Shown here piece by piece: positions 45,480-63,719 of a DNA stretch of 64,000 nucleotides; position 1 is the stretch's first letter, and each line of letters starts with the position of its first letter. This DNA comes from a virus. The stretch is taken from positions 25,156-89,155 of the IMG/VR virus record IMGVR_UViG_3300042387_000725, one strand, 5' to 3'. Under the pieces are notes generated by a model. It worked only from the letters and a program-made list of their open reading frames with translations. It did not search any database and was not told the DNA's origin. The position numbers and the translations under genes were made by a program.

Positions 45480-45633
45480 TGTGTGACCACCTTTCTTTTA
45501 ATGTGTTAGCGATTTGCTAACGCTTTCCTTGACCTAGGTTATTTGCTCTTATTTGCTACGCTCACCCTATTGCTAGGTTTATTTGGTAGGCTCAGAGGCT
45601 CACTAGGATTTCTTATTTAATTTTATAGTAGTA

Positions 45634-45762
45634 ATACTAGCACACATTTGGCTAAAAGTCAAGCATTTAGGGGTGTGTTTCGTATCACATTTTAGGGGGT
45701 ATTTCCTAAGCACTATTTAATTGTTATAGGAGTATCCTATCACATACCCTGCCAAAAGTCAA
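45634..45762 (-). promoter_or_regulatory. Two tandem sigma-A-like promoters (TTGACT-18-TAGTAT; TTGACT-17-TAGGAT)
   Basis: Both read cttgacttttNgc...tgtgNta and are followed by similar tactNctataaNaattaaata-like leaders. Confidence 0.75.
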
Positions 45763-45991
45763 GTCCTAGCACGGCGTGTCGCATGTGATATACACCACAC
45801 GACCCGAGGTTATCCACATGACGCACATCACACCCCTATTTCACGCTCAAGTTATCCACATGACCTAAGTCACATTTCAAAATGTCCGTTTTGTCCTACT
45901 TACTGGCTGGTAGATGTCAGACCCCCCTGTTATACTTACAGTATCAAAAGAAAATAAAGATTTAGAAAAAAAAGAAAGGTTAGGTCTAAAA

Positions 45992-46267
45992 ATGACTAAC
46001 ACTAAAGTAAATAAGTGCAAAGATATCTCTTGCACACACTCTGCAACATTCGCAGAGCGTTGGGTTATAAACGCTAATGGTAGCGTTACCCTAAAGCATG
46101 GTCAGAAGTGGCACTTCTGCACTACATGCGACAAGGTAGTCCATAAGGACTACATTCGCCACCATGAAGTAAAATGTGCTTCATTCTATAAAATGCAAGA
46201 AAATTGCATAGCAAAAAATCACTATGGACTAGGTTTCCATAGCGAAGGTATCGCTTGCAATATGTAA
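45992..46267 (+). CDS. Cys/His-rich hypothetical protein (C2H2-like)
   Basis: CTTCD...HHEVKC; SD gaaagg. Confidence 0.65.
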   Translation: MTNTKVNKCKDISCTHSATFAERWVINANGSVTLKHGQKWHFCTTCDKVVHKDYIRHHEVKCASFYKMQENCIAKNHYGLGFHSEGIACNM

Positions 46268-46316
46268 GCAATACTTAAAATAAAATAAAATTAACTAAAA
46301 AGAAAGGTGGTTCAAA

Positions 46317-46547
46317 ATGAACTACACACTAAACACTCTCCCAGTAGAGTATGCAAACAGAATTGTTTGCTGTTTCTGTTCAAAATATTCAACAGATGAT
46401 TTCTGTTGGAATTGCATGGAATACAAGGGCTTAATGACCCTTGCTGAATTCATGTCTATCTACTCAATAAGTGAGTGGGTTGCTGATGAAGCAGATGAAT
46501 TATCTGCTAAGTTAGATTCACTAATTGCGAAAGGAGAATATAAATAA
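46317..46547 (+). CDS. Zn-ribbon microprotein
   Basis: CCFC...CWNC; SD agaaaggtgg. Confidence 0.7.
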   Translation: MNYTLNTLPVEYANRIVCCFCSKYSTDDFCWNCMEYKGLMTLAEFMSIYSISEWVADEADELSAKLDSLIAKGEYK

Positions 46548-46756
46548 TGAGTATTGAAATCTTTCGCATGAACGAATCTGGCGCAGGCTGGGTTGATATT
46601 GAATCTGCAACTACTGTAGAATTGCTAGACTTAGAATTAGCAATAACATTTAATGCACCAATGCAAATGCTTTGCTTTAAATGCCATACACCAATTCCAA
46701 AAGGTAATGTGTGTGCATCACATAAAAATATTCGTGGCGCAATTTATTTTGAATAA
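46547..46756 (+). CDS. Zn-finger microprotein
   Basis: CFKC...CASH; TAATG coupling. Confidence 0.7.
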   Translation: MSIEIFRMNESGAGWVDIESATTVELLDLELAITFNAPMQMLCFKCHTPIPKGNVCASHKNIRGAIYFE

Positions 46757-47010
46757 ATAATTTTTGCGATCACTGAAAAAATCCCGAGCACCTGTGGATA
46801 ACTTTGTCAAGTTCATCTACGGCGTGTCGCAAAAAATCTTTGAAAATGACCAGATTGTGACCAGTCCATGTGACCTACATCTCATGTGACCTACCTCACA
46901 AAGTCCTAAATGTCCGTTTTATACCCCTCAAAATGTCAGACCCCTCTGTTATACTTCTATATATAGAAGGTTGAAAAAGAAGTAAACCCCTTAAAGAAAG
47001 GAAGTCCAAA

Positions 47011-47196
47011 ATGACTTCACTAAACACAATAGTATGCGATACGCATACACCTCAAATGTCCGCTGTTTCAACTGTCTGCAATATGGCATTTGATGAACAA
47101 TTTACTTTCTGCACTACATGTGAACAGAATATTGAAAGATGGGCTGATATTGATAACCCATTCTCTCCATGGTCTAAGTGGAAGGTGTCTAACTAA
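47011..47196 (+). CDS. Cys-rich microprotein
   Basis: CDTH...CTTC; SD agaaagga. Confidence 0.7.
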   Translation: MTSLNTIVCDTHTPQMSAVSTVCNMAFDEQFTFCTTCEQNIERWADIDNPFSPWSKWKVSN

Positions 47197-47381
47197 TGAG
47201 TACACCTACACTTATTCTTTCTCATATGCCTTTAACAAAAGTTTTCTTGCGTGGCACAAAACAATTCTTGTGTTGCGAGGAAATGCAAACAGCAATTTAT
47301 TGCGATGAACATTTTCAATTTCAAGGTTGCCAATATTGCAACTTTGACCTAACTGCCTCAGAATGTGAGTGTGAAAAATAA
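47196..47381 (+). CDS. Cys-rich microprotein
   Basis: CCEE..CDEH..CQYC..CEC; TAATG coupling. Confidence 0.7.
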   Translation: MSTPTLILSHMPLTKVFLRGTKQFLCCEEMQTAIYCDEHFQFQGCQYCNFDLTASECECEK

Positions 47382-47965
47382 TGAGTACACTATATGCTCT
47401 CCGTAGTATCTGCGGAAAAACAACTTCATATGTAGACGCATATGACATAAACCTAAACCCTGAAGGGTCTATCTGTTGCGATAATTGCAACTCAATTCTA
47501 ATCTGCCGTAAGGCTTGGGACTATCTCTATAAGGAGGTCAAATAATGACTAAATACAATGTGCTTATATCTTATGTCGTAGAGGCAGAAGATGAAATGAG
47601 AGCGGTATTCGCTCTGCAAAAATCACTCTACCCACTTAGCGAAAATGAAATTGCTAAGTTTGACGCTTTCCATGTTGAGGAGGTTCAATAATGATAACAA
47701 TTAACTGTCGCACTTGCGATGAACCTGTTGAGTCAATGTGGCTTGATGTGAATGATGTTGTTACTTGCCCTGATTGTTGGGGTGAGTAATGACAAGCACT
47801 CAGTTGATAGATGTACTTAATACATGCCGCAAAATCCGTGGCAACAATCATGATTCAGGCACTCACTATTTGCTTGGATATCTTTGGGCAAGTTTTTCAG
47901 ATAAAGAAAAATTGCGTATTGCAAAATTATTTGAAAAAGATTTAAAAGAAATTCAAAACGAATAA
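47381..47965 (+). CDS. Four coupled microproteins (47381-47545, 47545-47691, 47691-47789, 47789-47965)
   Basis: Chain of TAATG overlaps; two carry CxxC pairs. Confidence 0.65.
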
Positions 47966-48229
47966 AAATTCATAACACTGCATAAATATTTGGGGCCGAG
48001 CTGCTCGGCGCAGACGGCGTGTCGCTTTAAGACAAATGTAGTTAAGATCACAAAAAATATTTTCCCATTTTACGGCGTGTCAATTTGACAGACAAAACGG
48101 ACATTTTTTGTGTGACCTTTATCACAAATGCCACGCTCCACATAGTGAGACAAATGCCCCTAGAATTGGAAAATGTCAGCCCAAAATGCTATACTTAGAA
48201 TATAAAGAAACAGAAAAGAAGGTGACACC

Positions 48230-48442
48230 ATGTCAGCAAATGTATACACAATAAAAGACCTACTAGTAGGCACTAACTATCACTCACGCACCCTACAAGG
48301 TGAAATTGTATCAGCAGAGGAACACCCTCACGCTGTATGGTATGAGGGTTGCGAAACCTATCTAGTAGAGGTTGCCCCTAATAGCGGTTACAATAATTGG
48401 GGTCGCAAGACCTACCGCACTGTAGCGGTTCGCACCTCATAA
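48230..48442 (+). CDS. Small SH3-like hypothetical protein
   Basis: SD gaaggtg, follows a PafBC-type promoter. Confidence 0.7.
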   Translation: MSANVYTIKDLLVGTNYHSRTLQGEIVSAEEHPHAVWYEGCETYLVEVAPNSGYNNWGRKTYRTVAVRTS

Positions 48443-48509
48443 AATGTCAGTGCCCCTTGCTATAATTAAATAATCAAACAAACAAAAAAAAGAAAGTAGG
48501 AAACTAACT

Positions 48510-48692
48510 ATGTATAAAGTTAAACTAGAGTCATTTAATGGCTCAACTAAGGAAATCTCGCTACCCTCAAAGGGTGCGGTTGCTCAATTCATCTCAACAT
48601 ACCCAACGCAATTACCTGTTGGCGTATCCGTAAAAATCGCTTGCGATACTCTTGGAATTACTGGAACACTACGAGGAAAGGCTTCTCTCTAA
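48510..48692 (+). CDS. Small hypothetical protein, paralog of 44857-45030
   Basis: VKIACDTLGITG motif. Confidence 0.72.
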   Translation: MYKVKLESFNGSTKEISLPSKGAVAQFISTYPTQLPVGVSVKIACDTLGITGTLRGKASL

Positions 48693-49190
48693 TGGTAAAA
48701 ATTGAACATAACTTAAAATTCGTAACTGAGGTTGATGAAACCCACCCAGTAGGCATTCGCCTGCTAGAACTACCTAATGAAATGCAGATAACATTCCTTG
48801 AAAGCATGCTAAAGGATTTGCTTGTACCATACATTAAGCCTGAAATTGACCGCATAAATGAGGGTGGCTCTTATGCAATTCTAAAGGTGGCAGAATAATG
48901 ATGACACGCAAAGACTATGTAGCGGTTGCAGAAATTCTATCGTCTTATAAAGATTTAATAGGTGATGAATTTACTTTTGAGGATTTGGTAGAGGATTTTT
49001 CTGCAATGTTTTCAGATGACAATGCAAACTTCAAACATGAAAAATTTAGAGAGGCGTGTATGAAATGAATCGCTTACTAACTTCACTGGTGCAATTATTT
49101 TTAGCAGGTAGCGTAATTATTTTATTTCGCATGATGTTGCCAATGCTAAAAGAAGATTGGCAAGAAATAAAAAACGATTTGCGAAAGTAA
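48692..49190 (+). CDS. Three coupled small proteins (48692-48898, 48898-49068 MTRKDY-type, 49065-49190 with TM helix)
   Basis: Overlapping start/stop codons and SD motifs. Confidence 0.65.
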
Positions 49191-49196
49191 ATCATG

Positions 49197-49223
49197 ATCC
49201 TGAGCAAGATATAAAACTGCTCA
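49197..49223 (+). ncRNA. Predicted H-type pseudoknot, UGAGC/GCUCA family, copy 1
   Basis: ATC-C-TGAGC-AA-GAT-ATAAAACT-GCTCA. Confidence 0.65.
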
Positions 49224-49633
49224 ATTTTGGGCCGAGGCGTTTTCCACAGGTTTATCCACAGGCTATTAAGTGTGATTAAAAACACACCCCCAAAATCCCT
49301 GAAACTAGGGTTAAGAAGTTGAGTTTGTCACCCCCATAGTGTAGGATATTTATATCAAGTTAATTAAAGAAAGAAGGCTCACCATGACCTATACATGTAT
49401 GCAGTGTAATGAAAATGCAGTAGATGTAACTGAACTCTATTGCTTCCGTTGCTATCTTGACCGTGAGGTAGAAGCGATGATAGAGTATGACTATATCAAT
49501 TCACTATTCACCACTCAGGAGGCTAAGTAATGAACTACTATGACGACTACTATGAAAATCCAGAACCTGTATATGCAGGTTGCTATTGCAAACTAAACTA
49601 TCTATGCTCAGAATGTAAAGGAAGTTATAACTA

Positions 49634-49849
49634 ATGGAATACTTATACTCAGTAACTTGCACATATGACGGAGACCGCTCACCTCATTGGGTTGGTCGTT
49701 TTGATAACGCTATTGACGCAGTTAATTCATGGAATAAATTTGTTGATTGGGGCATGGCTCAGGAATATTCAACAGTTAATTTCTCAGAGCCTTCAGGCAA
49801 AATGCACACCAAAATCTTTTATCGCAACGGAAATGTAGGGGGTAAGTAA
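49634..49849 (+). CDS. Hypothetical protein
   Basis: Coupled ORF with SD. Confidence 0.7.
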   Translation: MEYLYSVTCTYDGDRSPHWVGRFDNAIDAVNSWNKFVDWGMAQEYSTVNFSEPSGKMHTKIFYRNGNVGGK

Positions 49850-49850
49850 T

Positions 49851-50189
49851 ATGGGTTCAGTTACAGCACTAGGAATTCAGGATACAGTCTTGGACTTGGA
49901 GACTCAGATTCTCTATCACCTTAAAGGTAATCACTATCCACCTGTACCCGCAGAAATGGTAGCGCCATGCATTGAAGCCATTGACGCATACTACGATGAG
50001 GACTATGACCGCATGATTGACATGCCAAAGGTTGGTGACTTTCAGATTCTCTACAAGAATTCAACAGTTGCACCTGCATGGGCTATCGTAGAGCAACACC
50101 ACCTTCAGACTTTCATTGACTCAGTAGATGATTGGCAAGATGGGTCAGACGACTTCCCACTCTCACTAGAATATGATGAGGGGGAATAA
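49851..50189 (+). CDS. Hypothetical protein (HLxxNHYPP motif)
   Basis: YHLKGNHYPPVP...IVEQHHL. Confidence 0.75.
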   Translation: MGSVTALGIQDTVLDLETQILYHLKGNHYPPVPAEMVAPCIEAIDAYYDEDYDRMIDMPKVGDFQILYKNSTVAPAWAIVEQHHLQTFIDSVDDWQDGSDDFPLSLEYDEGE

Positions 50190-50190
50190 A

Positions 50191-50433
50191 ATGAGTGCTA
50201 CAATAAAGAATATGGAACTAGTATGGGCAGATAAATTAACGCCAGGGTCACTGATGGAAGGTGACTTAATTAAAGTTGATGGCGATCTAATTGAAGTTAT
50301 TAGCATTAATTCTGATTCAACAGGTGATAACTATTTTATTGAATATGCTGATCCATATGGCGAACAAGATACATTAACAATTTTATATGACACATATGTT
50401 GATTTATATGTGTATGTAGATTTAGACGATTAG
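50191..50433 (+). CDS. Small acidic SH3-like protein
   Basis: LTPGSLMEGDLIKVDG. Confidence 0.6.
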   Translation: MSATIKNMELVWADKLTPGSLMEGDLIKVDGDLIEVISINSDSTGDNYFIEYADPYGEQDTLTILYDTYVDLYVYVDLDD

Positions 50434-50514
50434 CAGTTGGGCTCGGGGGCCCTGTGAGATTCATCACAATTAAGAGGATTTGATATTTTTCCCAATTCTT
50501 GCTAAAATTATTAC

Positions 50515-50664
50515 ATGAAAAAAACACCAGAGGAATTAAGGCGACTAATGGAGCTTCGCCGTTCTAATGCTGCCTCTGCAGTCCCCAACAAAAAGAAATA
50601 TGACAGAAAGAAATGTCAGTCCCAAATGCTAAAATTAATAAAAGAAAGAGGCCACCATGACTAA
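50515..50664 (+). CDS. Small basic protein (LRRSNAA...KKKYDRK)
   Basis: Leaderless TTGATA-17-TAAAAT-6-ATG; 49 aa. Confidence 0.65.
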   Translation: MKKTPEELRRLMELRRSNAASAVPNKKKYDRKKCQSQMLKLIKERGHHD

Positions 50665-51379
50665 ACTACTACGCTCTAAAGATAGAAAAGTTGCAAACCT
50701 TGTAACACCTAACGGTAAGCAAGCAAGCATTGCTAATACATTTGGATTACCTGCAGGCAAGGCATACTCATGTCCTGGTGCTACTAGCGTATGCGAAAGT
50801 GTATGCTATGCAGGTAAGTTAGAAAAAGTATTCCCAACAGTTAAAGTTAATCTATTGCATAACTGGAATCTACTTAAAGACGCAGACTATGAAACCATGG
50901 TAGCGCTACTTAAAGAAATGATAGTAGATTTTATTAAAGATTGTGCAAAGAAAGACGCACCATTGCTATTCCGTATCCATTGGGACGGAGATTTCTTTAA
51001 CGATACCTACGCATATGCATGGAAGCAAGTAATCATGGATTATCGCCATGTACAGTTCTGGGTATATACACGTGTAGAGACAGCAGCGGTAATGCTTAAA
51101 GACCAACCTAATCTATCTTTATATTATTCTACAGATAGTGAGAATAAGGCTACAGGTATTGCACTTAAAAATGATCATGACATATCCCTTGCATACCTTG
51201 CAAAAAATTTCTTAACAGGGCAAGCAGACATGAAAGAATTAACAGGCAAGCCTGGTGCTAAATGTCCTGAGAATAAAAAAGCAATTCCACTTATCTCACA
51301 ACAGGGCTCTGCGTGTGCAACCTGCAAATTGTGTATTTATGAGAAGTCTGATATAGTATTTAGCGCAACCAAAAAGTAA
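50657..51379 (+). CDS. Gp88-like Fe-S/radical-SAM-related protein
   Basis: FGLPAGKAYSCPGATSVCESVCYA, FRIHWDGDF, FWVYTR, C-terminal CATCKLC. Confidence 0.8.
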   Translation: MTKLLRSKDRKVANLVTPNGKQASIANTFGLPAGKAYSCPGATSVCESVCYAGKLEKVFPTVKVNLLHNWNLLKDADYETMVALLKEMIVDFIKDCAKKDAPLLFRIHWDGDFFNDTYAYAWKQVIMDYRHVQFWVYTRVETAAVMLKDQPNLSLYYSTDSENKATGIALKNDHDISLAYLAKNFLTGQADMKELTGKPGAKCPENKKAIPLISQQGSACATCKLCIYEKSDIVFSATKK

Positions 51380-51573
51380 GGGCTACTTATGGAATATCTA
51401 ATACTAGTTATCCTATTATTCATAATCCTACTGGCGGGTATGGGGCATGAGTGACCTATATCACACCAAAAATGTCTCAAAATATGAGATTTTTAGGGTT
51501 TGGATTTGATAAATGTCAGAGCATAAATGTATAATATAAATATAAGCAAAACCAACTACAAAGGAGAAACACA

Positions 51574-51738
51574 ATGTCAGTAGCAACATCAACATACAAG
51601 GTAGGCGACACTTTCACCACACAGAAGTCAAAGGTCACAGGAACTATTGAGGAAATTATCCCTCAGCCAAATGGTAATGTGCGTGTGAAGTTAATGGTAG
51701 ATGGAAAGCCACGCTATACAACTTGGACAGCCAAGTAA
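51574..51738 (+). CDS. Small SH3/KOW-like protein
   Basis: YKVGD...GTIEEI...VRVKL; SD aaggag. Confidence 0.7.
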   Translation: MSVATSTYKVGDTFTTQKSKVTGTIEEIIPQPNGNVRVKLMVDGKPRYTTWTAK

Positions 51739-51761
51739 GTTTGGCAATAACGCCAAAAAAC

Positions 51762-51834
51762 ACACGCCCCACAGAAATGCGTGTCTAAATAAATAGAGTG
51801 GGACAACCTGAGCAAGTTGTCAAAAGGCTCACCA
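51762..51834 (+). ncRNA. Two abutting predicted H-type pseudoknots (includes family copy 2, ending CCA)
   Basis: ACACGC/GCGTGT with CCCAC/GTGGG, then GACAAC-C-TGAGC-AA-GTTGTC-AAAAG-GCTCA-CCA. Confidence 0.7.
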
Positions 51835-51894
51835 TAATGTCAGTACCACCCCCTATAATAGAAATATCAACCACCAAAGAAAAGAGAGCAACAA

Positions 51895-52320
51895 ATGGCA
51901 ACAAGAGGAAAAGCAATCTCAGTAAAAATCGCAACAACAAAGGTAATCAACGCACTAGAAGGCGCACTCGCTAAACTAGAACTTGACTACACAACACAAG
52001 AAGCCAACGAAGCAAAGCATGAAATTGCTCGCAAGGCTTGGCAGAACGAACTTATTGCTTATGCTACTAAGCATATTGCAAATGCAGAAAACTTCCGCAC
52101 ATCATATCGTTCATGGAACAATCAACTCAACATTGACTTTGACCTAACAGTTTCAGAGTCAGAGTTGCCAGCGCAACCTGAAAAGGACTTCATCACAATG
52201 AGCCAATACGAATACAAGGAAAAGCGTGAGGAACTCTCAAACGCAATTCGTATTCTCAAAATGACAGATGAGGAAGTTGTAAATACTTCCACATACAATG
52301 CGGTGGCTCGCTACCTATAA
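51895..52320 (+). CDS. Hypothetical coiled-coil protein
   Basis: 141 aa, preceded by a PafBC-type promoter. Confidence 0.8.
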   Translation: MATRGKAISVKIATTKVINALEGALAKLELDYTTQEANEAKHEIARKAWQNELIAYATKHIANAENFRTSYRSWNNQLNIDFDLTVSESELPAQPEKDFITMSQYEYKEKREELSNAIRILKMTDEEVVNTSTYNAVARYL

Positions 52321-52550
52321 AACTTAGGGGGGCAACTTAAAGTCCTGAACCCTAACGACCTAAGTAAGTCGCAAAACTGCTTAACAGAGTTACTGCCAGT
52401 GCTATAGCGAGGCAAGTGCATTCCTGAGTAAGAATTAAAACTGCTCAACTTCGCCAGGCTGATTAGGGCGATAATAGAAATACTATAGAGCAAGGGTACT
52501 GCAGCCCTAAAGAAGCAGACATCCTGAGTATGATCCAAAACTGCTCACCA
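52321..52550 (+). ncRNA. Tandem array of predicted pseudoknots (family copies 3-5 plus interspersed others)
   Basis: Family copies at 52356-52383, 52420-52447, 52521-52550; others at 52394-52422 and 52493-52518. Confidence 0.7.
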
Positions 52551-52709
52551 ATATTTATTCAGCTGATTGCATAAGTATGCGGGGCCGAGATAATGTGAGA
52601 TTAATCACACCCATTAAGTCTCACTATTTAAGATTCCTGGAATTACGTCTTGCATTTGTCAGTGGCCATTGCTAGAATTATATTATTAACTAAACAGAAA
52701 GAGGCCCCC

Positions 52710-53171
52710 ATGGACCACGAAAAGCCAACACTAACAAACGAATACTACATGACAAGAGAATTTCTTGAGCGACAGATTGCTGCACTAACAGAGTCAATTG
52801 AGAAAAAGGATGCATTGATTATTTCATTGCAGGACCGTTCATCAGAACATTCATCAACTCTTCTTACAGAGCGCCGTGCACATCTAGCAACTATGAATTC
52901 AATTAAAGAATATGTAGTTGAATCAGTCCGTAATGGAGAAATGAATCATTCAGTTGCAGAAGCGCTTGCTGAGATTTGTGAGTTTGAATTAACTAAGACT
53001 GTAACTGTTACTGCAACAGTTGAGTTTGAAGTTGAACTAGAGGTGCCATTTGAAGTAGATGCAGAAGAAGTTGCTAACACTCTTGAATTCAGTGTTGACT
53101 CATTTGATTATTCAATTGATGACTTCAGCGTTGATACCCGCTCAATTCAAGCAGAGGATAATATTTCATAG
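52710..53171 (+). CDS. Acidic hypothetical protein
   Basis: SD gaaagagg, MDHEKP start. Confidence 0.75.
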   Translation: MDHEKPTLTNEYYMTREFLERQIAALTESIEKKDALIISLQDRSSEHSSTLLTERRAHLATMNSIKEYVVESVRNGEMNHSVAEALAEICEFELTKTVTVTATVEFEVELEVPFEVDAEEVANTLEFSVDSFDYSIDDFSVDTRSIQAEDNIS

Positions 53172-53184
53172 GGGGCTATGAGAT

Positions 53185-53248
53185 AAGACCTACCGCATGT
53201 CTTTAAACTAGGTTAGCGGACCTGAGCATTGTCCACGTAAACGGCTCA
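53185..53248 (+). ncRNA. Pseudoknot pair including family copy 6
   Basis: GGAC-C-TGAGC-ATT-GTCC-ACGTAAACG-GCTCA, preceded by an AAGAC/GTCTT stem variant. Confidence 0.6.
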
Positions 53249-53422
53249 CTTTTTATTGCAAAAAAAATCTCGGGGGCAAAAACTTTCATTTGTCAAATTA
53301 AGAGGGTATGATTAAGATCACAGAAAAAATGTCCGATTTATGCCTATTTAACTATCCTGATTTGCATTTGTCAGTCCATGGGTGTATAGTTATCTTATCA
53401 ACAACAAAAAGGAGAAACACTC

Positions 53423-54445
53423 ATGGCACATGACCTAGAAACACAAAACGGCAAGACATCTTTTGCATCTTTCCGTGAACCTGCATGGCATGGATTGGGT
53501 ACTGTATTCACAGAAGAAAAAACAACCGCAGAAATGCTAGAGGCTGCAAGCCTTAATGGTTGGAATGTTCGTCTTGAGGATATGCCAATTCCATCACATC
53601 TTACAAGCGACAAGGCATATCAGTATGTCCTACGCACTAACCCTACAGATAACACACAGACAGATGTTCTTGGTGTTGTAGGTGAGCGTTATCATGTATT
53701 GCAAAATGAAGATTTATTTTCATTTGGTGATAATATTCTTGACGGCGGTGGTCGTTGGGAAACCGCTGGCGCTATCAAGGGTGGGCGTGTAGTATTTGGC
53801 TCACTTGCACTAGAGCGTGAGACAGTTCTTGACCCTAGCGGTGTTGCAGATAAGGTAAAGACTTATTTGCTCATCAACACATCACACGATGGTTCTATCG
53901 CAATTCAAGCAAGCATTACACCTGTTCGTGTAGTGTGCGCTAACACTCTTAACCTTGCGCTAGGTGGCGTAGGTCGTAAGAAAAATAAGGGTATCAAGCA
54001 ATCATTCAAGATTCGCCATACTCAGACCGCTAATGGCAAGGTGCAAATTGCTCGTGAGACTCTTGGTCTTGCTAATGCGTACATGGACGAATTTGATATC
54101 ATGGCTAAGGCTATGTTTGAGAAGGAAGTCAATGCTAAGCAATTCAATGACATCATTCTTGCTGCTTACCCTAAGCCTGAAAAGGATTCTAAGGGTGCGT
54201 TCAAGAAGTGGGAAAACAAGGTAGATGTTATTAACGATATCTACACTGGCGAATTTAATGGCATGATTGCTGGCTCTGCATGGGGCGCTTTCAATGCACT
54301 TACAGAACGCCTTGATTGGTATCGCACTGCAAGAGGTGGTTCTAACGAATCTATCCTTGCAAGCGCAAGTGGTTTTGACCCTGCAATTAACGCAGAGAAA
54401 AATCGTTTGCTAAAAGTTGTGCAGAATGTAATGTCAATCGCATAA
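53423..54445 (+). CDS. DUF932 / TIGR03299 phage-plasmid protein
   Basis: PAWHGLG...VGERYHVLQN...ETAGAIKGG...NTSHDGS...TPVRVVCANTL...IRHT. Confidence 0.9.
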   Translation: MAHDLETQNGKTSFASFREPAWHGLGTVFTEEKTTAEMLEAASLNGWNVRLEDMPIPSHLTSDKAYQYVLRTNPTDNTQTDVLGVVGERYHVLQNEDLFSFGDNILDGGGRWETAGAIKGGRVVFGSLALERETVLDPSGVADKVKTYLLINTSHDGSIAIQASITPVRVVCANTLNLALGGVGRKKNKGIKQSFKIRHTQTANGKVQIARETLGLANAYMDEFDIMAKAMFEKEVNAKQFNDIILAAYPKPEKDSKGAFKKWENKVDVINDIYTGEFNGMIAGSAWGAFNALTERLDWYRTARGGSNESILASASGFDPAINAEKNRLLKVVQNVMSIA

Positions 54446-54450
54446 CAAAA

Positions 54451-54482
54451 AAATCCTGAGCAAGATTTAAAACTGCTCACCA
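54451..54482 (+). ncRNA. Predicted pseudoknot, family copy 7, ending CCA just before tRNA-Asp
   Basis: AAATC-C-TGAGC-AA-GATTT-AAAACT-GCTCA-CCA. Confidence 0.68.
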
Positions 54483-54483
54483 G

Positions 54484-54557
54484 GATCTCATAGCTCAATT
54501 GGTTAGAGCGCTACCCTGTCACGGTAGAGGTTGCGAGTTCAAGTCTCGTTGGGATCG
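54484..54557 (+). tRNA. tRNA-Asp(GTC)
   Basis: Full cloverleaf: GATCTCA/TGGGATC acceptor, CTACC-CTGTCAC-GGTAG anticodon arm, TTCAAGT T-loop; no encoded CCA. Confidence 0.93.
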
Positions 54558-54690
54558 CAAAAGTTGGGCTCGGGATTTTTCTAAACTAAACAATTTAATG
54601 TCAAACCTTATTAAGATGAAATGACATTTTTCCCTGAAATTCTATTAAGAGGGACTTGAATTTGTCACCGTTCTTGGCTATAATTAATAT

Positions 54691-55238
54691 ATGACTACAC
54701 CATACAGCCCATATACCATAAACGAACTCGTAAATGCTATTTATGAGGATAACCTATCGCACTTTGAATTTGAGGAGAACATGGGTGGAGAACCCTGTGA
54801 CTGCCACCTACATATTACCATGGAAACTATTGTCAAGTATTGGGGAGAGTAATGTTAGGTTATACTAAAACAGATCTAGATGAGATGACTAATGCTATTG
54901 ATTCTGCTATGACTACCGTCAATCCTGACGATGACCCTTGGCTACATTCAAGACTGTTTATGGCCAGGGATTTCTTAGATGGCCTATGGGCAGAAGGCTA
55001 CTTTGACTAATGTCAGTGGCTACCTCTATAATTAATACATACACCAAAGGAGAAATAAATGGCAACATTTGATATCAAAGTAGTAGTAGAGTATTTCTAC
55101 GAAGTAGAAGCAGATAACGCAGAACAAGCAGAAGAACTAGGCTGGCACTATGAGGACTATGCTTTCTCAGGTGAGGTTTATTCTATTGATGTAACTCAGA
55201 CCTCTGAAGATGATGAGGATGAAGAAGATGACAACTAA
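54691..55238 (+). CDS. Three small acidic proteins (54691-54852, 54852-55010, 55059-55238)
   Basis: Leaderless or SD starts after PafBC-type promoters; coupled stops. Confidence 0.65.
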
Positions 55239-55318
55239 TGTAGTTTATGTTCCTTACTGTGGGGATTGTGACGCACAGTTAATTGATATGCCGTCATTTA
55301 TTGAAGGGCACAACTGCG

Positions 55319-55498
55319 ATGAATGAGTTCATTGAATATATAAAGATACATATCATTAGCCTAGAGCAAGACCTAGAGGCTGCACAGAATCATGAGCCTT
55401 TGGCTGAGGATGAGTACGATGAATCAGATGATTACTTATATGGTTCCATTGAGACAGCCAAACACCTTTTGTCAGTGGCAGAGGGTATGATTAAATAA
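55319..55498 (+). CDS. Small acidic helical protein
   Basis: MNEFIEYIK..., TAATG coupling. Confidence 0.6.
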   Translation: MNEFIEYIKIHIISLEQDLEAAQNHEPLAEDEYDESDDYLYGSIETAKHLLSVAEGMIK

Positions 55499-55782
55499 TG
55501 GAAACAACACAACTAGAACCAAGACTACAAAAACTGGTTGACCTAGGTGAATCAGGCACAGATATCCTACATGGAGAACTAAAGAATATGATGTATGAGT
55601 GCGAGAAGATTCTTGTACCCCTACTAGAAAACTCTAATGAGTTAGGCTCTGATGAAGAGTATGACGACACAGTTGAGCGTTTATATAATGAAGGATATAT
55701 GGACGCTTTGACTTCAGTATATGCTTTAACATATCAGTTAGCATTTGCTATTAACGATAGGAGACAAAATGGGAATGCGTGA
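55498..55782 (+). CDS. Hypothetical protein
   Basis: Leaderless start after the promoter at 55470. Confidence 0.72.
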   Translation: METTQLEPRLQKLVDLGESGTDILHGELKNMMYECEKILVPLLENSNELGSDEEYDDTVERLYNEGYMDALTSVYALTYQLAFAINDRRQNGNA

Positions 55783-56029
55783 TGAGTCATGGTGTAACTC
55801 TTGTGGCTGTTCTATTCCATACACAGAGGAAGAAGACTACAATGCCTACTGTGGAGAGTGTGCCTCTATATCTGTTATAGATGACCTCCGTGCTTTTGTA
55901 GAGGGTCGTATCAAAGAGCTAACAGAATTGCGTGAGAAGTATCAGGCAGAGGGCGATCATGAACTAGATGATTACTCAGCAGGGGCTATTGACGCATACG
56001 ATATTGTCCGTATGAAGTTGACAGATTAA
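55769..56029 (+). CDS. Zn-ribbon protein
   Basis: CNSC...CGEC; SD aggag. Confidence 0.65.
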   Translation: MGMRDESWCNSCGCSIPYTEEEDYNAYCGECASISVIDDLRAFVEGRIKELTELREKYQAEGDHELDDYSAGAIDAYDIVRMKLTD

Positions 56030-56080: not shown

Positions 56081-56797
56081 ATGCCAAATTGGGTATATAA
56101 CGGATTAACCATTGAGGGTAATCCAGAGCAAGTCAAATCACTAATAGCACAGATGAACAAACCATTTGTGGATTCTATTAAACCTAATGGAGACCTTGCT
56201 TACTCTATTCAACAGCGTAAGTATGTTAATCCTATCTTTTCATTTAGGAACATCATTGCTCCTACAGATATGGAAGCGTATCATTCTGTTCCTGTATTCC
56301 CTGAAAAATTTAGCCTAGCATTTGAGGGCAACGATTGGTACAACTTTAACAACCGTGAGTGGGGTACTAAGTGGGACGTAGCAGTAGTAGAGGGCGATGA
56401 GTATCCTACTACAACCATTCAAGAATCAGAAAACGGTGAGAACTATGTAGTTTATTATAGTTTTGAAACAGCATGGTCAAGACCTGTTCCTGCCCTTCAG
56501 AAACTATCTAGTCAGTATCCTAACCTACTTATGACATTATCATATGAGGAAGAGACTGGCTGGGGTGGGGAAATGGAATTCCTGCGTGGTGAGATTATTT
56601 CTGAATCAGAGTATGACAGTATGTGTAGAGATTGTGATGCTACAGACCAAATGGATTTCTGCGAGGACTGTGAAGAAACAATCTGCAGCAATTGTAACTG
56701 GCTAGGAGAGGCTGACCTACAGGCAGTTGCACAATGTGATACCCACAAGATATACTTAGATACTAAGGTCCCTGAGTACAGAAAGGTTTCTAACTAA
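56081..56797 (+). CDS. DUF1281/YubB-like ferredoxin-fold protein with Cys-rich tail
   Basis: MPNWVYN...WYNFNNREWGTKWD...FETAWSRP...YEEE; TTGACA-17-TAAAAT promoter. Confidence 0.82.
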   Translation: MPNWVYNGLTIEGNPEQVKSLIAQMNKPFVDSIKPNGDLAYSIQQRKYVNPIFSFRNIIAPTDMEAYHSVPVFPEKFSLAFEGNDWYNFNNREWGTKWDVAVVEGDEYPTTTIQESENGENYVVYYSFETAWSRPVPALQKLSSQYPNLLMTLSYEEETGWGGEMEFLRGEIISESEYDSMCRDCDATDQMDFCEDCEETICSNCNWLGEADLQAVAQCDTHKIYLDTKVPEYRKVSN

Positions 56798-56924
56798 TGC
56801 AAACATATTTACTTGAAATGCGGGTAGATGAAGAATGGCTCAAAGTTCTTGACAAGATAACTAATGATGTATATGACGGCGAAGTATGCCAATGGCTAAG
56901 ACTACAAGCAGAGGGAGAAAACTA

Positions 56925-57293
56925 ATGGGAGCACGTATTAACTTTGTATTCAAGGACTCAGAGACTGCAATTGGGGAACCTTCCTCATCTGTAGTTCTAT
57001 ACAGTCACTGGGGACAAGACTCATGGGAAACAGACATTGCAGAAGCAATACACCACGCCAAGCCTAGGTGGGACGACTCTTCATATGCAACACGTATGAT
57101 GATTAGTTATCTTATTCAAGATAGCGTTCTTGATGAAACAGGGTTTGGTATTTATTCTATCAGCGGTACCAACTATGACCTAGGTGAGCAGACTATCGTA
57201 ATTGACCTTGCTAACAAGACTGTTACTGATTCAGTGCCTGTATCATTTGAGGCATTTATTAATGCATATGGTCCACAACCAATAACTATCTAA
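56925..57293 (+). CDS. Hypothetical protein (MGAR...LYSHWG)
   Basis: Conserved-looking motif, SD ggag. Confidence 0.7.
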   Translation: MGARINFVFKDSETAIGEPSSSVVLYSHWGQDSWETDIAEAIHHAKPRWDDSSYATRMMISYLIQDSVLDETGFGIYSISGTNYDLGEQTIVIDLANKTVTDSVPVSFEAFINAYGPQPITI

Positions 57294-57304
57294 GGAGAAA
57301 TAAC

Positions 57305-57469
57305 ATGGCAGCAAAGAAGAAAAATAAACTAAAGACAATTCCATATCTAGAAACTTGGGACACACGCTACGGTAAGTCACAGCGTATTGTCTATCGCAAG
57401 GGTGGTAAGTTCGTGGATAATACATCCCTTACCGCTCTCAAAGCGGGGGCCAGGGTCGCCTCTCGCTAA
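57305..57469 (+). CDS. Small basic protein
   Basis: SD aaggag; MAAKKKNK... Confidence 0.65.
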   Translation: MAAKKKNKLKTIPYLETWDTRYGKSQRIVYRKGGKFVDNTSLTALKAGARVASR

Positions 57470-57549
57470 GTAACAGGGGAGCGTAATTTGTGGTGGGTTG
57501 CGCTCCCCACCTACTTTTGCTATAATTAAAAGTTACCATTGGAGAATAA

Positions 57550-57768
57550 ATGTATAAGGTAGTAAAGTTAGCAAAGAGTCCAGAGGAGAAGGTGGCTAAC
57601 AAGATTGTTGTCTTGCTCTCTGACCTATCGCTAGACTTAGAGGCTGTTGGACTTTATCTTGCCAGAATTGCTCCACACATTATTTATCGCAGGGGATTAG
57701 AAGTCTTAGAAGCAATGGAGTATAATAAAGAGGTTCAGGAATTAGACAGAGGAGCATATCGTGAATAA
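57550..57768 (+). CDS. Hypothetical protein
   Basis: SD ggag, TATAAT -10. Confidence 0.7.
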   Translation: MYKVVKLAKSPEEKVANKIVVLLSDLSLDLEAVGLYLARIAPHIIYRRGLEVLEAMEYNKEVQELDRGAYRE

Positions 57769-58021
57769 CTTTGAAAACAAAATTACTATCCTTGCTGAGC
57801 TTTGGATGAACTATCGTGATGATGATCAAATAAAAGATTTTGTAGAATACAATGATTTGGGTTTGCCACTTGCATATTTGCTAACCAATGAAATTGTTTT
57901 TCCAACAGCCCAAGCAGAAATATATATTAACGAAACCTACGACCTGCTCATCGCCGCCCTTGATGTGGAAGACCTGGAGTATGAATCACTTGATGAGATG
58001 ATGGGCTACGCTGAGGAGTAG
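57761..58021 (+). CDS. Hypothetical protein
   Basis: ILAELWMNYR...YNDLGLPLAY. Confidence 0.75.
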   Translation: MNNFENKITILAELWMNYRDDDQIKDFVEYNDLGLPLAYLLTNEIVFPTAQAEIYINETYDLLIAALDVEDLEYESLDEMMGYAEE

Positions 58022-58825
58022 TGGGGCCCCGAGGAAATCATATCAAAACGGACATTAAGGACAAACCTTATTTTCCCCAAACCACATTACGAAAGCGCTA
58101 GAATTTTCCCGAAAAAACATTAAGAACCAACTTTGAAAAATCCCTGAACTTTCCCAAACCTTATACCATACAAACCATATATTTGTCAAACCAGGTGTAT
58201 AATTATATTATGACAAGAAATCATTTCTCCAAGCGAGGTGGACCTTACTTTGTCAATGATGGTTTTCCTAAGTATGTAAAACAAAAACCAAATAAAGGTT
58301 TGTCTATTGTTTCTACTATAGGTAAGATTAGATCTCTCTTCAAATTCCCCCGATCCAAGCCAGCTAAATAGTCCTGTTAGACATTACGATCCCCTGCGTT
58401 TTTGGCGGGGGATTACGAAAGTATAACCATTTCCCCTAGTATAATAAACATTACGATATCAAACCTTTTCTCCTGGTTTTTAGATATTATCCAAACCTTT
58501 TAAATCTTTTTGCTGGATTTTTGATCAATTTTGCTACATTTTTTTAGGCTATAAAGGTTTGACAAATAGAAGGTTTGGAGGTATAATCCGCTATCCAGAT
58601 ATAAGGTTTGACAAATGGAAAGGTTTGTGATAGGAGGTTTGGCCCGTTAGACATTACGAACCCTTTTGTATAAATGCTCAATAACCCACTTCACTCCACT
58701 TTCCTCCACCAAGACCATATCTAAAAAATATCAGTAACATTTAATTGTGGATAAACCTGTGGATAACTCTTAAGTAAAGGCTAACAAACCTTAAGTAAAG
58801 GCTAAGAAACCTGTGGATAACTATC
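58022..58825. other. Putative replication origin: iteron-like repeats and three DnaA boxes
   Basis: Largely non-coding; ACATTACGA and AAGGTTTG repeats; TGTGGATAA at 58746, 58758, 58812. Confidence 0.55.
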
Positions 58826-59269
58826 TGATATCATAGACACATGAAACTTATTTTGATCATATCACTAGGTATATTTATCTTTCTCAACTACATGGCATAT
58901 CTCCAGCAACTCCGTATGACTGGATAAAAACCAGGGAATAGACAAACCACGCCATCTGGCGTATACTTAATATATGCGTATCGTGATATGTCCTAAATGC
59001 AAAAGAGAAATCCAGGTTAAATCCCCATTCGCCTATATGACCTTAAATAACCATAGTAAGGTTTGTTAGTTATACTAGGGATTACGAAGCTCTCTTTTAT
59101 TTCCCCGAAATTTGGTATACTTTAATTATGCCTAAAGTATTATGCTTTAATTGTGGTGGGTCTTTTGATCTGCCTTACTACCTTGGAACTCCAACAAAAG
59201 CCTGTCCAAAATGTTATCCAGAATATTACCATGAGGTAAACTGCGCTTGCACGAAATGTATGCCATAGT

Positions 59270-60673: not shown

Positions 60674-60739
60674 ATCAAATATTATACCATTTTGCTTAAT
60701 ATGCTATAATCTTTGTATAGATAAAGATAGAGGTGTAAG

Positions 60740-60925
60740 ATGGGCATAGCTGATAGTACTTTTCGTGGAGCAGCCACAAGGTATATGGAGTCTTTGAAGA
60801 AAAAAGAAAAATGTTATTTCTGCGACCACAAGGCTGAGTATAATCAGGTGATAGATTTAGGTCAACATGGATACTCTATATCTGGTGTATGCAAGTCTCA
60901 CCTTGAGATGGGTCTTTCTTCTTGA
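60740..60925 (+). CDS. Zn-finger microprotein
   Basis: CYFC...CKSH; SD gaggtg. Confidence 0.65.
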   Translation: MGIADSTFRGAATRYMESLKKKEKCYFCDHKAEYNQVIDLGQHGYSISGVCKSHLEMGLSS

Positions 60926-61024
60926 GCAATTTTAGTATGTTAACCGATAGTGCCCTTTAGGGCATATGTAGGTATATAACTTCTATTTTGCGCCGAACTT
61001 TAAAAGAATGGTATTATTCAATAT

Positions 61025-63621: not shown

Positions 63622-63641
63622 TAGCAGTAACTGTTTTATTG

Positions 63642-63715: not shown

Positions 63716-63719
63716 CTAG

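What the first reader, a model, noticed from the sequence alone, without database searches (positions are those of the whole stretch)
45915..55491. Early region driven by 13 promoters matching the host PafBC (RecA-NDp) DNA-damage promoter
Seen: TGTCAG (11 copies) or TGTCAC (2 copies) lies exactly 10 nt upstream of a TANNNT hexamer at 45915, 46934, 48174, 48445, 49326, 50614, 51514, 51838, 52657, 53369, 54663, 55011 and 55470, e.g. TGTCAG-tgccccttgc-TATAAT. Each precedes an SD-led or leaderless gene. I did not see this geometry at the late-arm promoters. Several also carry a normal -35 (TTGCAT, TTGAAT, TTGAGT, TTGACT). Established: the LexA-independent actinobacterial DNA-damage promoter is tTGTCRgtg-N8-TAnnnT, read at its -26 element by the WYL-domain activator PafBC, which responds to single-stranded nucleic acid. 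Inference: the phage uses the host's damage sensor, or a phage mimic of it, to switch on its early genes, possibly triggered by its own incoming or replicating DNA.
Basis: partly seen in the sequence, partly recalled or inferred. Interest (0 to 1): 0.87.

Follow-up and report, generated by a model that had tools for sequence, protein, structure and literature searches.

The report
Phage promoters shaped like PafBC promoters
An uncultured freshwater phage of actinobacteria starts its block of small, probably early genes from 13 promoters built like the host promoters that the DNA-damage alarm protein PafBC switches on, so it probably borrows that host switch, though nothing has been tested at the bench.

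Summary
All 13 TGTCAS-N10-TANNNT sites lie at the stated coordinates, all on the + strand (13 found, 1.57 expected, at most 5 in 100 shuffles). Each lies 6-55 nt before a start codon, and two genes are leaderless.

The motif is a family trait. In 80 related IMG/VR loci, TGTCAG is by far the commonest hexamer 16 nt before a -10 box (594; next 69; TGTCGG 35). The 10-nt gap is strict (654 sites against at most 36 for other gaps).

The geometry equals the published PafBC motif tGTCgg(N10)tA(N3)T (PMC8635444).

The window has 37% GC, but its GP88 and DUF932 genes are most like actinophage genes. Small-genome freshwater actinobacteria, the candidate hosts, encode PafB and PafC. They carry the same box before recA, a RadA-like gene, ssb and a helicase, often leaderless with the same 6-nt gap.

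No WYL, PafB, sigma or MotA gene was found in the phage or in three complete relatives.

PafBC dependence, the host and the "early" timing are inferred, not shown. This scan has noted the same thing on many related phage genomes. I found no paper describing it.

The parts
45915..45936 (+). Promoter 1: TGTCAG-N10-TATACT with TGn and no -35. ATG at 45992 (gap 55 nt).
46934..46955 (+). Promoter 2: TGTCAG-N10-TATACT, near-identical to promoter 1. ATG at 47011 (gap 55 nt).
48174..48195 (+). Promoter 3: TGTCAG-N10-TATACT with TGn and TTGGAA at 18 nt. ATG at 48230.
   Evidence: Motif found before 62 of 70 orthologues.
48445..48466 (+). Promoter 4: TGTCAGTGC-N7-TATAAT with TGn and no -35. ATG at 48510.
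   Evidence: Motif found before 54 of 74 orthologues.
49326..49347 (+). Promoter 5: TGTCAC-N10-TAGGAT, with TTGAGT at 17 nt. ATG at 49384.
   Evidence: 12 of 17 orthologues.
50614..50635 (+). Promoter 6: TGTCAG-N10-TAAAAT with TGn, before the GP88-family gene (50657-51379).
   Evidence: 64 of 80 orthologues.
51514..51535 (+). Promoter 7: TGTCAG-N10-TATAAT, with TTGATA at 18 nt. ATG at 51574.
   Evidence: 46 of 79 orthologues.
51838..51859 (+). Promoter 8: TGTCAG-N10-TATAAT with no -35 and no TGn. ATG at 51895.
   Evidence: 37 of 78 orthologues.
52657..52678 (+). Promoter 9: TTGCAT-t-TGTCAGTGGCC-N5-TAGAAT. ATG at 52710.
   Evidence: 17 of 17 orthologues.
53369..53390 (+). Promoter 10: TTGCAT-t-TGTCAG-N10-TATAGT, before the DUF932 gene (53423-54445).
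   Evidence: 70 of 73 orthologues. Footprint: both boxes conserved, spacer variable.
54663..54684 (+). Promoter 11: TTGAAT-t-TGTCAC-N10-TATAAT. Leaderless gene: ATG at 54691, 6 nt after the -10 box.
   Evidence: Only 8 of 57 orthologues carry the motif.
55011..55032 (+). Promoter 12: TGTCAGTGGC-N6-TATAAT, with TTGACT at 18 nt. ATG at 55059.
   Evidence: 0 of 15 orthologues carry the motif.
55470..55491 (+). Promoter 13: TGTCAGTGGC-N6-TATGAT, inside the 3' end of the preceding ORF. Leaderless gene: ATG at 55498.
   Evidence: 19 of 46 orthologues.
45773..48081 (+). Four GGCGTGTC words (45773, 46821, 48016, 48074), 100-158 nt upstream of promoters 1-3. Accessory element with an unknown reader.
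46885..52609 (.). Four perfect CRP/GlxR-like palindromes TGTGA-N6-TCACA (46885, 48111, 50453, 52594). Two of the four (48111, 52594) begin 63 nt before a TGTCAG box (promoters 3 and 9); 46885 begins 49 nt and 50453 161 nt before one. One-mismatch copies begin 62-65 nt before promoters 2, 7 and 10.
50657..51379 (+). GP88-family gene (Pfam PF17338), about 52% identical to gene 88 of mycobacteriophage L5.
53423..54445 (+). DUF932 gene, about 53% identical to genes of Streptomyces phages.

Best explanation
The 13 sites are working promoters of one class. Each has a -26 box TGTCRG (invariant GTC) exactly 10 nt upstream of a sigma-A-type -10 box TAnnnT. Together they cut a 9.6-kb block of about 35 small genes into short transcription units.

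The host's housekeeping RNA polymerase most likely reads them with the host activator PafBC. PafB's helix-turn-helix contacts the GTC triplet, and PafBC bridges to sigma region 4 ('sigma adaptation'). PafBC works only when it has bound single-stranded DNA. The block would therefore be switched on, or boosted, when ssDNA appears in the cell. That ssDNA could come from damage to the host (for example UV in surface water), or from processing, replication or nuclease attack of the incoming phage DNA.

Sites that also have a -35 or a TGn extended -10 would have a basal, PafBC-independent level.

Shown here: the motif, its strict spacing, its conservation, its position before genes, its identity with the published and host-side motif, and the presence of PafBC in candidate hosts.

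Inferred: PafBC binding, the trigger, early timing and host identity.
For: 1. The sites are real and promoter-like.
- 13 found against 1.57 expected, all on one strand.
- 13 of 13 lie 6-55 nt before an ATG.

2. The motif is a family-wide constraint, measured in 80 related loci (1.34 Mb).
- Strict motif: 636 on the gene strand against 50 on the other.
- TGTCAG is the top hexamer 16 nt before TA.[AG][AC]T: 594, next 69. The main variant is TGTCGG (35), which is the R of TGTCRG.
- Gap of 10 nt: 654 sites. Every other gap from 6 to 14 nt: at most 36.
- 616 of 654 sites have an ORF start within 150 nt, and 35 are leaderless with exactly 6 nt.
- The motif is kept before orthologues: DUF932 70 of 73, GP88 64 of 80, p153 17 of 17. 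In the footprints the spacer varies while the boxes are conserved.

3. It matches the published motif tGTCgg(N10)tA(N3)T. The 5' part lies at -23 to -28, the GTC triplet is read by PafB R46 and R50, and there is no -35 (PMC8635444, passages). PafBC needs ssDNA to join RNAP-sigma-A at such promoters (PMC11804915, passages).

4. The host side fits.
- 5 of 5 complete genomes of the candidate host family have adjacent PafB- and PafC-like genes.
- One pair matches PDB PafBC: 6sj9 at 1.5e-38, 7p5x PafC at 2.1e-26. Its RMFER segment aligns to R46 and R50 of M. smegmatis PafB.
- GTC[AG]G-N10-TAnnnT lies before recA in 21 of 23 family loci and in 23 of 26 loci sampled across the class.
- Other hits lie before a RadA-like gene, a DEAD/ResIII helicase, SSB and DUF6504. 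Several are leaderless with the same 6-nt gap.

5. Flank preferences are shared.
- Position 6 is G in 1% of 446 phage sites, in 1 of 21 family sites and in 1 of 23 class sites.
- Position 7 is G/C in 89% of phage sites, although the phage has 37% GC, and in 21 of 21 and 23 of 23 host sites.

6. It is not a general host promoter word. There are 57 hits in 6 host genomes against 64 for the reversed control, about 7 per Mb. The phage block has 13 in 9.6 kb.

7. No phage reader was found: no WYL, Sigma70_r2, PafB homologue or MotA_activ. No Pfam family scored above its cut-off in 20 ORFs of the block, and no PHROG in 10.
Against: - No binding, expression or TSS data exist. No RNA run was listed.
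- The host is not identified. Contigs of this phage family are binned into 12 MAGs of many phyla, only 2 of them actinobacterial. A DNA search of 151 candidate-host genomes gave, among the matches listed, only tRNA-sized hits of 77-86% identity, one 178-nt 67% match in G150, and G002's own mis-binned phage contigs; 137 further matches were not listed.
- A 615-aa structural protein is most like cyanophage proteins over 31% of its length.
- Phage -10 boxes are near-consensus. 409 of 654 related sites have TGn and 256 of 654 have TTG at a -35 distance. The host PafBC-type promoters seen here have weak -10 boxes and no TGn. The phage promoters may therefore fire without any activator.
- Two cultured actinophages show no enrichment: L5 0 hits, Jay2Jay 2 hits against 5 for the control. 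This is not a general actinophage habit.
- Some sites are poorly conserved among orthologues: 0 of 15 and 8 of 57.
- Small ORFans in the block could encode an unrecognised activator.
- 18% of this genome is missing by CheckV's estimate.
Confidence: 0.55

Rival explanations
1. A phage-made or virion-carried adaptor reads TGTCAG, as MotA and AsiA of phage T4 read the MotA box at about -30 of middle promoters. The block would then be 'middle', switched on by a product of canonical sigma-A promoters elsewhere, and the likeness to the PafBC motif would be convergence or mimicry.
For: - The layout resembles T4 middle promoters: a good -10 box, an upstream box about 10 nt away, and A/T before the box (recalled; PMC8635444 itself draws the parallel).
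- Canonical TTGACA-N17-TAnAAT promoters exist on the same strand at 56018 and 58559 and could be the true immediate-early ones.
- About 35 small ORFans in the block have no assigned function.
- 18% of this genome is missing.
Against: - The first promoters of the arm (45915, 46934) already carry the box, so something present at injection must read them.
- There is no MotA_activ, WYL, PafB-like or sigma region 2 match in this record or in three 100%-complete relatives.
- Identity with the host motif goes beyond the core: R at position 5, G avoided at 6, G/C at 7-8, a 10-nt gap and a 6-nt leaderless gap. That is an unlikely coincidence.
Confidence: 0.2
2. The promoters are strong sigma-A promoters that need no activator, because of the extended -10 and, in some, a -35. 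The conserved TGTCAG serves another end. It could bind a different host factor or a phage repressor, or it could soak up PafBC as a decoy and so blunt the host damage response.
For: - 409 of 654 related sites have TGn and 256 of 654 have TTG at 17-18 nt.
- The -10 boxes are TATAAT-like, unlike the host PafBC-type promoters.
- The region is crowded with other host-factor-like words: CRP-like palindromes, GGCGTGTC and DnaA boxes.
Against: - A decoy or operator would not need a gap fixed to the nucleotide (654 at N10 against 17 at N9 and 1 at N11), nor one orientation relative to the -10 box.
- 398 of 654 sites have no TTG at a -35 distance. Site 51838 has neither a -35 nor TGn.
- No factor other than PafBC is known to me to read GTC at -26 (recalled).
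Confidence: 0.17
3. The sites are copies of one duplicated cassette or mobile boundary sequence with no function of their own.
For: Promoters 45915 and 46934 are nearly identical over 22 nt, and so are their upstream regions.
Against: - Apart from that pair, spacers and flanks differ between sites.
- Only the two boxes are conserved in orthologous footprints.
- Sites keep their place before orthologous genes at 29-96% protein identity.
Confidence: 0.03

Closest known systems
PafBC-dependent (RecA-NDp) promoters of Mycobacterium and other actinobacteria, read by 'sigma adaptation' (PMC8635444, PMC11804915, PMC6789036)
   Same: - A box with an invariant GTC at -28 to -23.
- An exact 10-nt gap to TAnnnT.
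- A or G at position 5.
- No G at position 6 and G/C at positions 7-8.
- Often no -35.
- Leaderless genes 6 nt after the -10 box in candidate hosts and in the phage.
   Different: - The sites are on a phage, at 13 per 9.6 kb against about 7 per Mb in candidate hosts.
- They stand before small ORFans rather than repair genes.
- The -10 boxes are near-consensus, often with TGn, and about half also have a -35.
- There are no LexA boxes beside them (0 in the genome).
- PafBC binding is untested.
T4 middle promoters read by MotA and AsiA ('sigma appropriation')
   Same: A phage promoter class with a normal -10 box plus a special upstream box in place of, or beside, the -35. An adaptor sits between sigma region 4 and the DNA. 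The parallel is drawn in PMC8635444.
   Different: - The box sequence differs (the T4 box is recalled).
- No MotA activation domain was found.
- Here the adaptor would be a host protein that senses ssDNA.
Early lytic promoter Pleft and gene 88 region of mycobacteriophage L5
   Same: A GP88-family gene lies near the head of a same-strand array of small genes at one side of the genome.
   Different: L5 has 0 TGTCRG-N10-TANNNT sites in 52 kb. Its early promoter is of the canonical -35/-10 type and is controlled by the phage repressor (recalled).
WYL-domain regulators that couple ssDNA or DNA damage to phage-related genes (DriD, CapW, BrxR)
   Same: A sensor of single-stranded DNA controls genes in the phage-host conflict (abstracts in the listing).
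   Different: Those regulators control host defence or repair genes. Here the phage's own genes would be the targets.

Membership tests
PafBC-dependent (RecA-NDp) promoter class | A -26 element with an invariant GTC triplet (tGTCgg / TGTCRG) at about -28 to -23 | tested here: met
   13 of 13 sites carry TGTCA[GC]. In relatives TGTCAG occurs 594 times and TGTCGG 35 times, and any change within GTC at most 11 times.
PafBC-dependent (RecA-NDp) promoter class | An exact 10-nt gap between the box and a sigma-A-type -10 box tA(N3)T | tested here: met
   13 of 13 sites. In relatives N10 gives 654, N9 17, N11 1 and N12 36.
PafBC-dependent (RecA-NDp) promoter class | No -35 consensus (hybrid promoter not recognised by RNAP-sigma-A alone) | tested here: inconclusive
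   6 of 13 sites lack TTG at 17-18 nt and 7 of 13 have it. In relatives 398 of 654 lack it, and 409 of 654 have TGn, which may give activator-independent activity.
PafBC-dependent (RecA-NDp) promoter class | The host encodes PafB and PafC with the DNA-reading arginines | tested here: inconclusive
   Met in candidate hosts: adjacent PafB/PafC-like genes in 5 of 5 complete genomes, PDB matches to PafBC, and RMFER aligned to R46 and R50. The true host is not established.
PafBC-dependent (RecA-NDp) promoter class | PafBC joins RNAP-sigma-A at the promoter and activates it only with ssDNA or DNA damage | not testable with these tools
   This needs reporter assays, in vitro transcription or ChIP. 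No RNA run was listed.
T4-type MotA/AsiA middle promoters | The phage encodes a MotA-like activator (MotA_activ domain) | tested here: not met
   PF09114 gave no match at E<=1 in this record or in three complete relatives. AsiA was not searched.
T4-type MotA/AsiA middle promoters | MotA box sequence centred near -30 | tested here: not met
   The box here is TGTCAG at -28 to -23. The T4 box sequence is recalled, not taken from a call.
LexA (SOS) controlled phage promoters | An actinobacterial LexA box (TCGAAC-N4-GTTCG) at the promoter | tested here: not met
   0 boxes in the 89-kb record and 9 in 1.34 Mb of related loci. The same pattern is present before recA in 22 of 26 sampled actinobacterial genomes.

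The most novel reading that the evidence does not exclude
A very abundant family of freshwater actinophages (at least 593 IMG/VR contigs) has made the host's ssDNA-activated alarm protein PafBC the main switch of its first gene block. This would be the first phage promoter class that works by 'sigma adaptation'. The phage's own incoming or replicating DNA, or sunlight damage to the host, would then time phage gene expression. With its CRP-like boxes and the recA-linked GGCGTGTC word, the block would be a small host-state-sensing regulon copied from the cis-grammar of host damage genes.
Probability: 0.5. Interest if true: 0.85.

Novelty: new variant of a known kind. Interest (0 to 1): 0.72.

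Why it matters
PafBC and sigma adaptation are known only as a host DNA-damage response. A phage that writes the PafBC box in front of its own genes would show three things:
- An ssDNA sensor can be turned into a phage timing device.
- PafBC would gain a role in infection.
- A testable explanation would exist for how phages of the most abundant freshwater bacteria start their programme without a sigma factor or RNA polymerase of their own.

The PafBC box is conserved across actinobacteria: 23 of 26 sampled recA loci carry it. The idea can therefore be tested in M. smegmatis or C. glutamicum, even though the natural hosts are hard to grow.

The promoters would also make compact, damage-responsive parts for actinobacterial genetics.

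Tried and rejected
- Megablast of 45500-56000 against 50,697 phage records gave no match.
- PHROGs on 10 ORFs of the block gave 0 families. Pfam on 20 ORFs gave nothing above a curated cut-off. No activator candidate could be named.
- WYL, Sigma70_r2, a PafB protein query and MotA_activ gave no match in this record or in complete relatives G031-G033. A WhiB-like stretch at C1:6758-6823 scored E=0.0014, below the cut-off, and was not used.
- Host prediction was attempted three ways and failed.
  - GP88 relatives in genome contigs lie in 12 MAGs of many phyla, so binning is uninformative.
  - A DNA search of 19 kb against 151 genomes of the candidate family listed tRNA-sized matches of 77-86% identity, one 178-nt 67% match in G150, and the mis-binned phage contigs of G002; 137 further matches were not listed.
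  - A structural protein pointed weakly to cyanophages.
- Generality was tested in two ways.
  - L5 and Jay2Jay show no enrichment.
Of the 80 loci I analysed, 77 share at least one ORF with this phage and all have 34-44% GC. No unrelated phage group with the motif was found, and none can be excluded.
- Expression: no RNA holder was listed.
- A conserved host word, TGTCAGACCCCATCCCTAATAT, like promoters 1-2 and seen in G020 and G014, was followed up. It precedes a non-coding stretch that ARAGORN does not call a tRNA. I dropped it.
- Papers.
  - Listings only.
  - Passages read: PMC8635444, PMC11804915, PMC6789036, PMC8223512 and PMC12848934.
  - Most of the text read: PMC10202952. The Planktophila phages described there are 39 kb at 45% GC, so they are a different group.
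  - Rafique et al. 2025 (pafBC and mycobacteriophage resistance) was seen only as a citation in PMC12848934 and could not be read.
  - Supplements were not opened. PafBC regulon tables in them could bear on prophage or phage sites.

Full report
**What is there**

The pattern TGTCAS-N10-TANNNT occurs 13 times in the window, at exactly the coordinates given. All 13 are on the + strand between 45915 and 55491. Shuffled sequence gives 1.57 on average and never more than 5.

The whole record is one 89,155-bp IMG/VR virus contig. It has 36.7% GC, is linear, and CheckV rates it 82% complete. It holds only one further match, on the other strand inside the late arm.

Each site is followed by an ATG 6 to 55 nt after the -10 box. 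The genes at 54691 and 55498 start exactly 6 nt after it and are therefore leaderless. Seven sites also have a TTG-type hexamer 17-18 nt before the -10 box. Six have a TGn extended -10.

Genes from position 1 to about 44,700 run on the - strand and are structural: tape measure, fibre-like proteins and fn3 proteins. The + strand arm starts at 45.9 kb with this block. Canonical TTGACA-N17-TAnAAT promoters take over from 56 kb (56018, 58559).

**It is a conserved promoter class**

A GP88-family protein of the block has at least 593 relatives in IMG/VR. The 80 best loci total 1.34 Mb, with 75-89% protein identity and 35-41% GC. In them:
- The strict motif occurs 636 times on the gene strand and 50 times on the other.
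- Without presupposing the box, the commonest hexamer 16 nt before TA.[AG][AC]T is TGTCAG (594). The next is ATATTT (69), and TGTCGG comes at 35. Changes inside GTC number at most 11.
- A 10-nt gap gives 654 sites. Gaps of 6-9 and 11-14 nt give 1 to 36.
- 616 of 654 sites have an ORF of at least 40 aa starting within 150 nt. 35 of them are leaderless with exactly 6 nt.
- The motif keeps its place before orthologous genes: DUF932 70 of 73, GP88 64 of 80, the 153-aa gene 17 of 17 and the 70-aa gene 62 of 70. It is patchy before others: 0 of 15 and 8 of 57.
- In alignments of upstream regions the two boxes are conserved and the spacer is not.

Three complete relatives of 112-114 kb carry the motif as one cluster.

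**Comparison with the known motif**

PMC8635444 (passages read) gives the in vivo PafBC motif as tGTCgg(N10)tA(N3)T. Its 5' part lies at -23 to -28. The GTC triplet is almost invariant across actinobacteria and is read by PafB R46 and R50. There is no -35, and PafBC sits between sigma-A region 4 and the DNA.

PMC11804915 (passages) shows that PafBC joins RNAP-sigma-A on such promoters only when it has bound ssDNA. [quoted passage not shown]

The phage sites have the same box, the same gap and the same A/G choice at position 5.

**Is the host an actinobacterium with PafBC?**

Two genes of the block nevertheless have their best relatives in actinophages:
- GP88: 388 phage records, of which 283 are Mycobacterium and 99 Streptomyces. 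The best match is 52% identity over the full length, and L5 gene 88 is among the hits.
- DUF932: 554 records, mostly actinophages, with a best match of 53.5%.

Contigs of this phage family are binned into freshwater MAGs of many phyla, so binning says nothing about the host. One such MAG, an Actinomycetota genome of 1.3 Mb (G002), gave me a handle on its GTDB family, whose genomes are 0.8-2.2 Mb. I take this family as a candidate host group. That it is the acI/Nanopelagicales lineage is my inference; the tools gave no names.

In this family:
- 5 of 5 complete genomes have two adjacent WYL genes.
- One pair matches solved PafBC structures: 6sj9 at 1.5e-38 and 7p5x PafC at 2.1e-26. It keeps the RMFER segment that aligns to R46 and R50 of M. 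smegmatis PafB.
- GTC[AG]G-N10-TAnnnT stands before recA in 21 of 23 loci, mostly as cGTCAGTGG-N7-TACCTT, with a LexA box further upstream.
- GTCRGTG-N8-TAnnnT hits in five genomes are no more numerous than a reversed control (24 against 19). They sit before recA, a RadA-like gene, a DEAD/ResIII helicase, SSB, DUF6504, DUF3263, a Panacea-domain gene and a trypsin-like peptidase. Several are leaderless with a 6-nt gap, and some have a LexA box right behind.

Across the class, 23 of 26 sampled genomes have the box before recA (loci of two unpublished genomes were left out).

**Beyond the core**

Aligned on TGTC, phage and host sites share preferences that base composition does not explain. The sets are 446 unique phage sites, 21 family recA sites and 23 class recA sites.

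| Position | Phage | Family recA | Class recA |
|---|---|---|---|
| 6: G | 1% | 1 of 21 | 1 of 23 |
| 7: G or C | 89% | 21 of 21 | 23 of 23 |
| 8: G or C | 88% | 20 of 21 | 20 of 23 |

The phage has only 37% G+C overall.

The word is not a general host promoter element. Six host genomes hold 57 TGTCRG-N10-TANNNT sites against 64 for the reversed control, about 7 per Mb. The phage block has 13 in 9.6 kb.

**What speaks against, or is missing**

- Nothing shows binding, induction or timing. No RNA run was listed.
- The host is unproven.
- The phage -10 boxes are near-consensus. In relatives 409 of 654 have TGn and 256 of 654 have a TTG at a -35 distance. The host PafBC-type promoters seen here have weak -10 boxes. 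The phage promoters may therefore be active without PafBC, with the box adding a boost, or they may serve another purpose.
- L5 and the Streptomyces phage Jay2Jay are not enriched: 0 hits, and 2 against a control of 5.
- No phage-encoded reader was found. The block is full of ORFans, and this contig is incomplete.

**Verdict**

The most likely mechanism is that host RNAP-sigma-A reads these promoters with host PafBC, so that ssDNA in the cell switches on or boosts the block. I put this at about 0.55. The rivals are:
- A phage-made MotA-like adaptor: 0.2.
- Activator-independent extended -10 promoters whose box serves another factor or acts as a PafBC decoy: 0.17.
- Functionless duplication: 0.03.

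The label 'early' rests on position at the head of the arm opposite the structural genes, on small gene size and on the L5 gene 88 parallel. It is an inference.

**Relation to earlier notes and to print**

This scan has already noted the same promoter class on many related phage genomes: 111 notes in at least 89 genomes. Follow-up agents reached the same reading. My tests were made independently, before I read those notes, and they agree.

I found no paper describing phage promoters of PafBC type. The searches were 'PafBC'+'phage', 'RecA-NDp', 'pafBC'+'mycobacteriophage', 'sigma adaptation'+'bacteriophage', and actinophage promoter terms. Only the held library was searched, and supplements were not opened.

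**Accessory elements in the same block**

The intergenic regions also carry:
- Four GGCGTGTC words, against 0.6 expected in the genome.
- Four perfect CRP-like palindromes, against about 0.1 expected. CRP-like boxes, two perfect and three one-mismatch, begin 62-65 nt before five of the TGTCAG boxes.
- An AAAATGTCCG box.
- DnaA boxes.

GCGTGTC also lies upstream of the LexA box of recA in 18 of 26 genomes sampled across the class. It never overlaps the PafBC-type box, and the full octamer is rare elsewhere in candidate host genomes.

The block therefore shares two separate words with the host recA control region.

Noticed in passing
window 45773-45780, 46821-46828, 48016-48023, 48074-48081 (and 63941-63948 on the - strand): GGCGTGTC occurs 5 times in the 89-kb record against 0.6 in shuffles, and 318 times in the 80 related loci. 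141 of 209 same-strand copies lie 80-199 nt upstream of a TGTCAG promoter. The core GCGTGTC also lies upstream of the LexA box of recA in 18 of 26 actinobacterial genomes sampled across the class, separate from the PafBC-type box. The octamer is rare elsewhere in candidate host genomes (4-18 per genome, fewer than a reversed control). Other notes of the scan read it as a WhiA GACAC box, which I did not test.
   Followed up: partly
window 46885-46900, 48111-48126, 50453-50468, 52594-52609: There are four perfect CRP/GlxR-like palindromes TGTGA-N6-TCACA, against about 0.1 expected, and 401 in the related loci. Perfect or one-mismatch copies begin 62-65 nt before the TGTCAG of promoters 46934, 48174, 51514, 52657 and 53369. 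If transcription starts 7 nt after the -10 box, their centre is near -83.5.
   Followed up: partly
window 45879-45892, 46907-46920, 53326-53339; inverted at 48098-48104: An AAAATGTCCG(T/A)TTT box lies 24-40 nt upstream of three TGTCAG promoters. It is among the best-conserved stretches upstream of DUF932 orthologues. It has a TGTC core but no -10 box at the promoter distance.
   Followed up: partly
window 58380-59130: A 750-nt non-coding stretch holds three DnaA boxes (TGTGGATAA at 58747, 58759, 58812), repeated AAGGTTTG words, direct repeats CTTAAGTAAAGGCTAA and a perfect TTGACA-N17-TATAAT promoter at 58559. It is a candidate replication origin.
   Followed up: no
window 49199, 52423, 52523, 54455 (+ strand): Gene-end hairpin or pseudoknot words CCTGAGYA...TGCTCA occur 4 times here and 193 times in related loci, always on the gene strand. 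One stands directly before tRNA-Asp (54484-54558). Other notes of the scan describe them as a pseudoknot family.
   Followed up: no
L166 7184-8310 (G020:C1:1027184-1028309): A candidate host genome has three PafBC-type promoters within 1.1 kb. They drive a leaderless 380-aa ORFan, an 87-aa zinc-ribbon-like protein and a trypsin-like peptidase. This may be a damage-induced island.
   Followed up: partly
L144, L147, L156 (candidate host genomes G006, G020, G023): A leaderless 58-72-aa cysteine-rich protein (starting MIIDC or MMIDC) sits 6-7 nt behind a PafBC-type promoter in three genomes. It has no Pfam family.
   Followed up: no
window 50480-50664: A 49-aa ORF (50515-50664) has its own canonical promoter (TTGATA-N17-TAAAAT with TG, 50480-50508) and a CRP-like box upstream. 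Its last codons contain promoter 50614 of the GP88 gene.
   Followed up: no
window 56081-64000: Downstream of the block, the same strand carries a DUF1281_C/Api92-like protein, two glycosyltransferase-like genes, a 2OG-Fe(II) oxygenase and a cluster of four tRNAs (Met, Asn, Gly, Lys at 63642-63945). These are driven by canonical promoters rather than TGTCAG ones.
   Followed up: no
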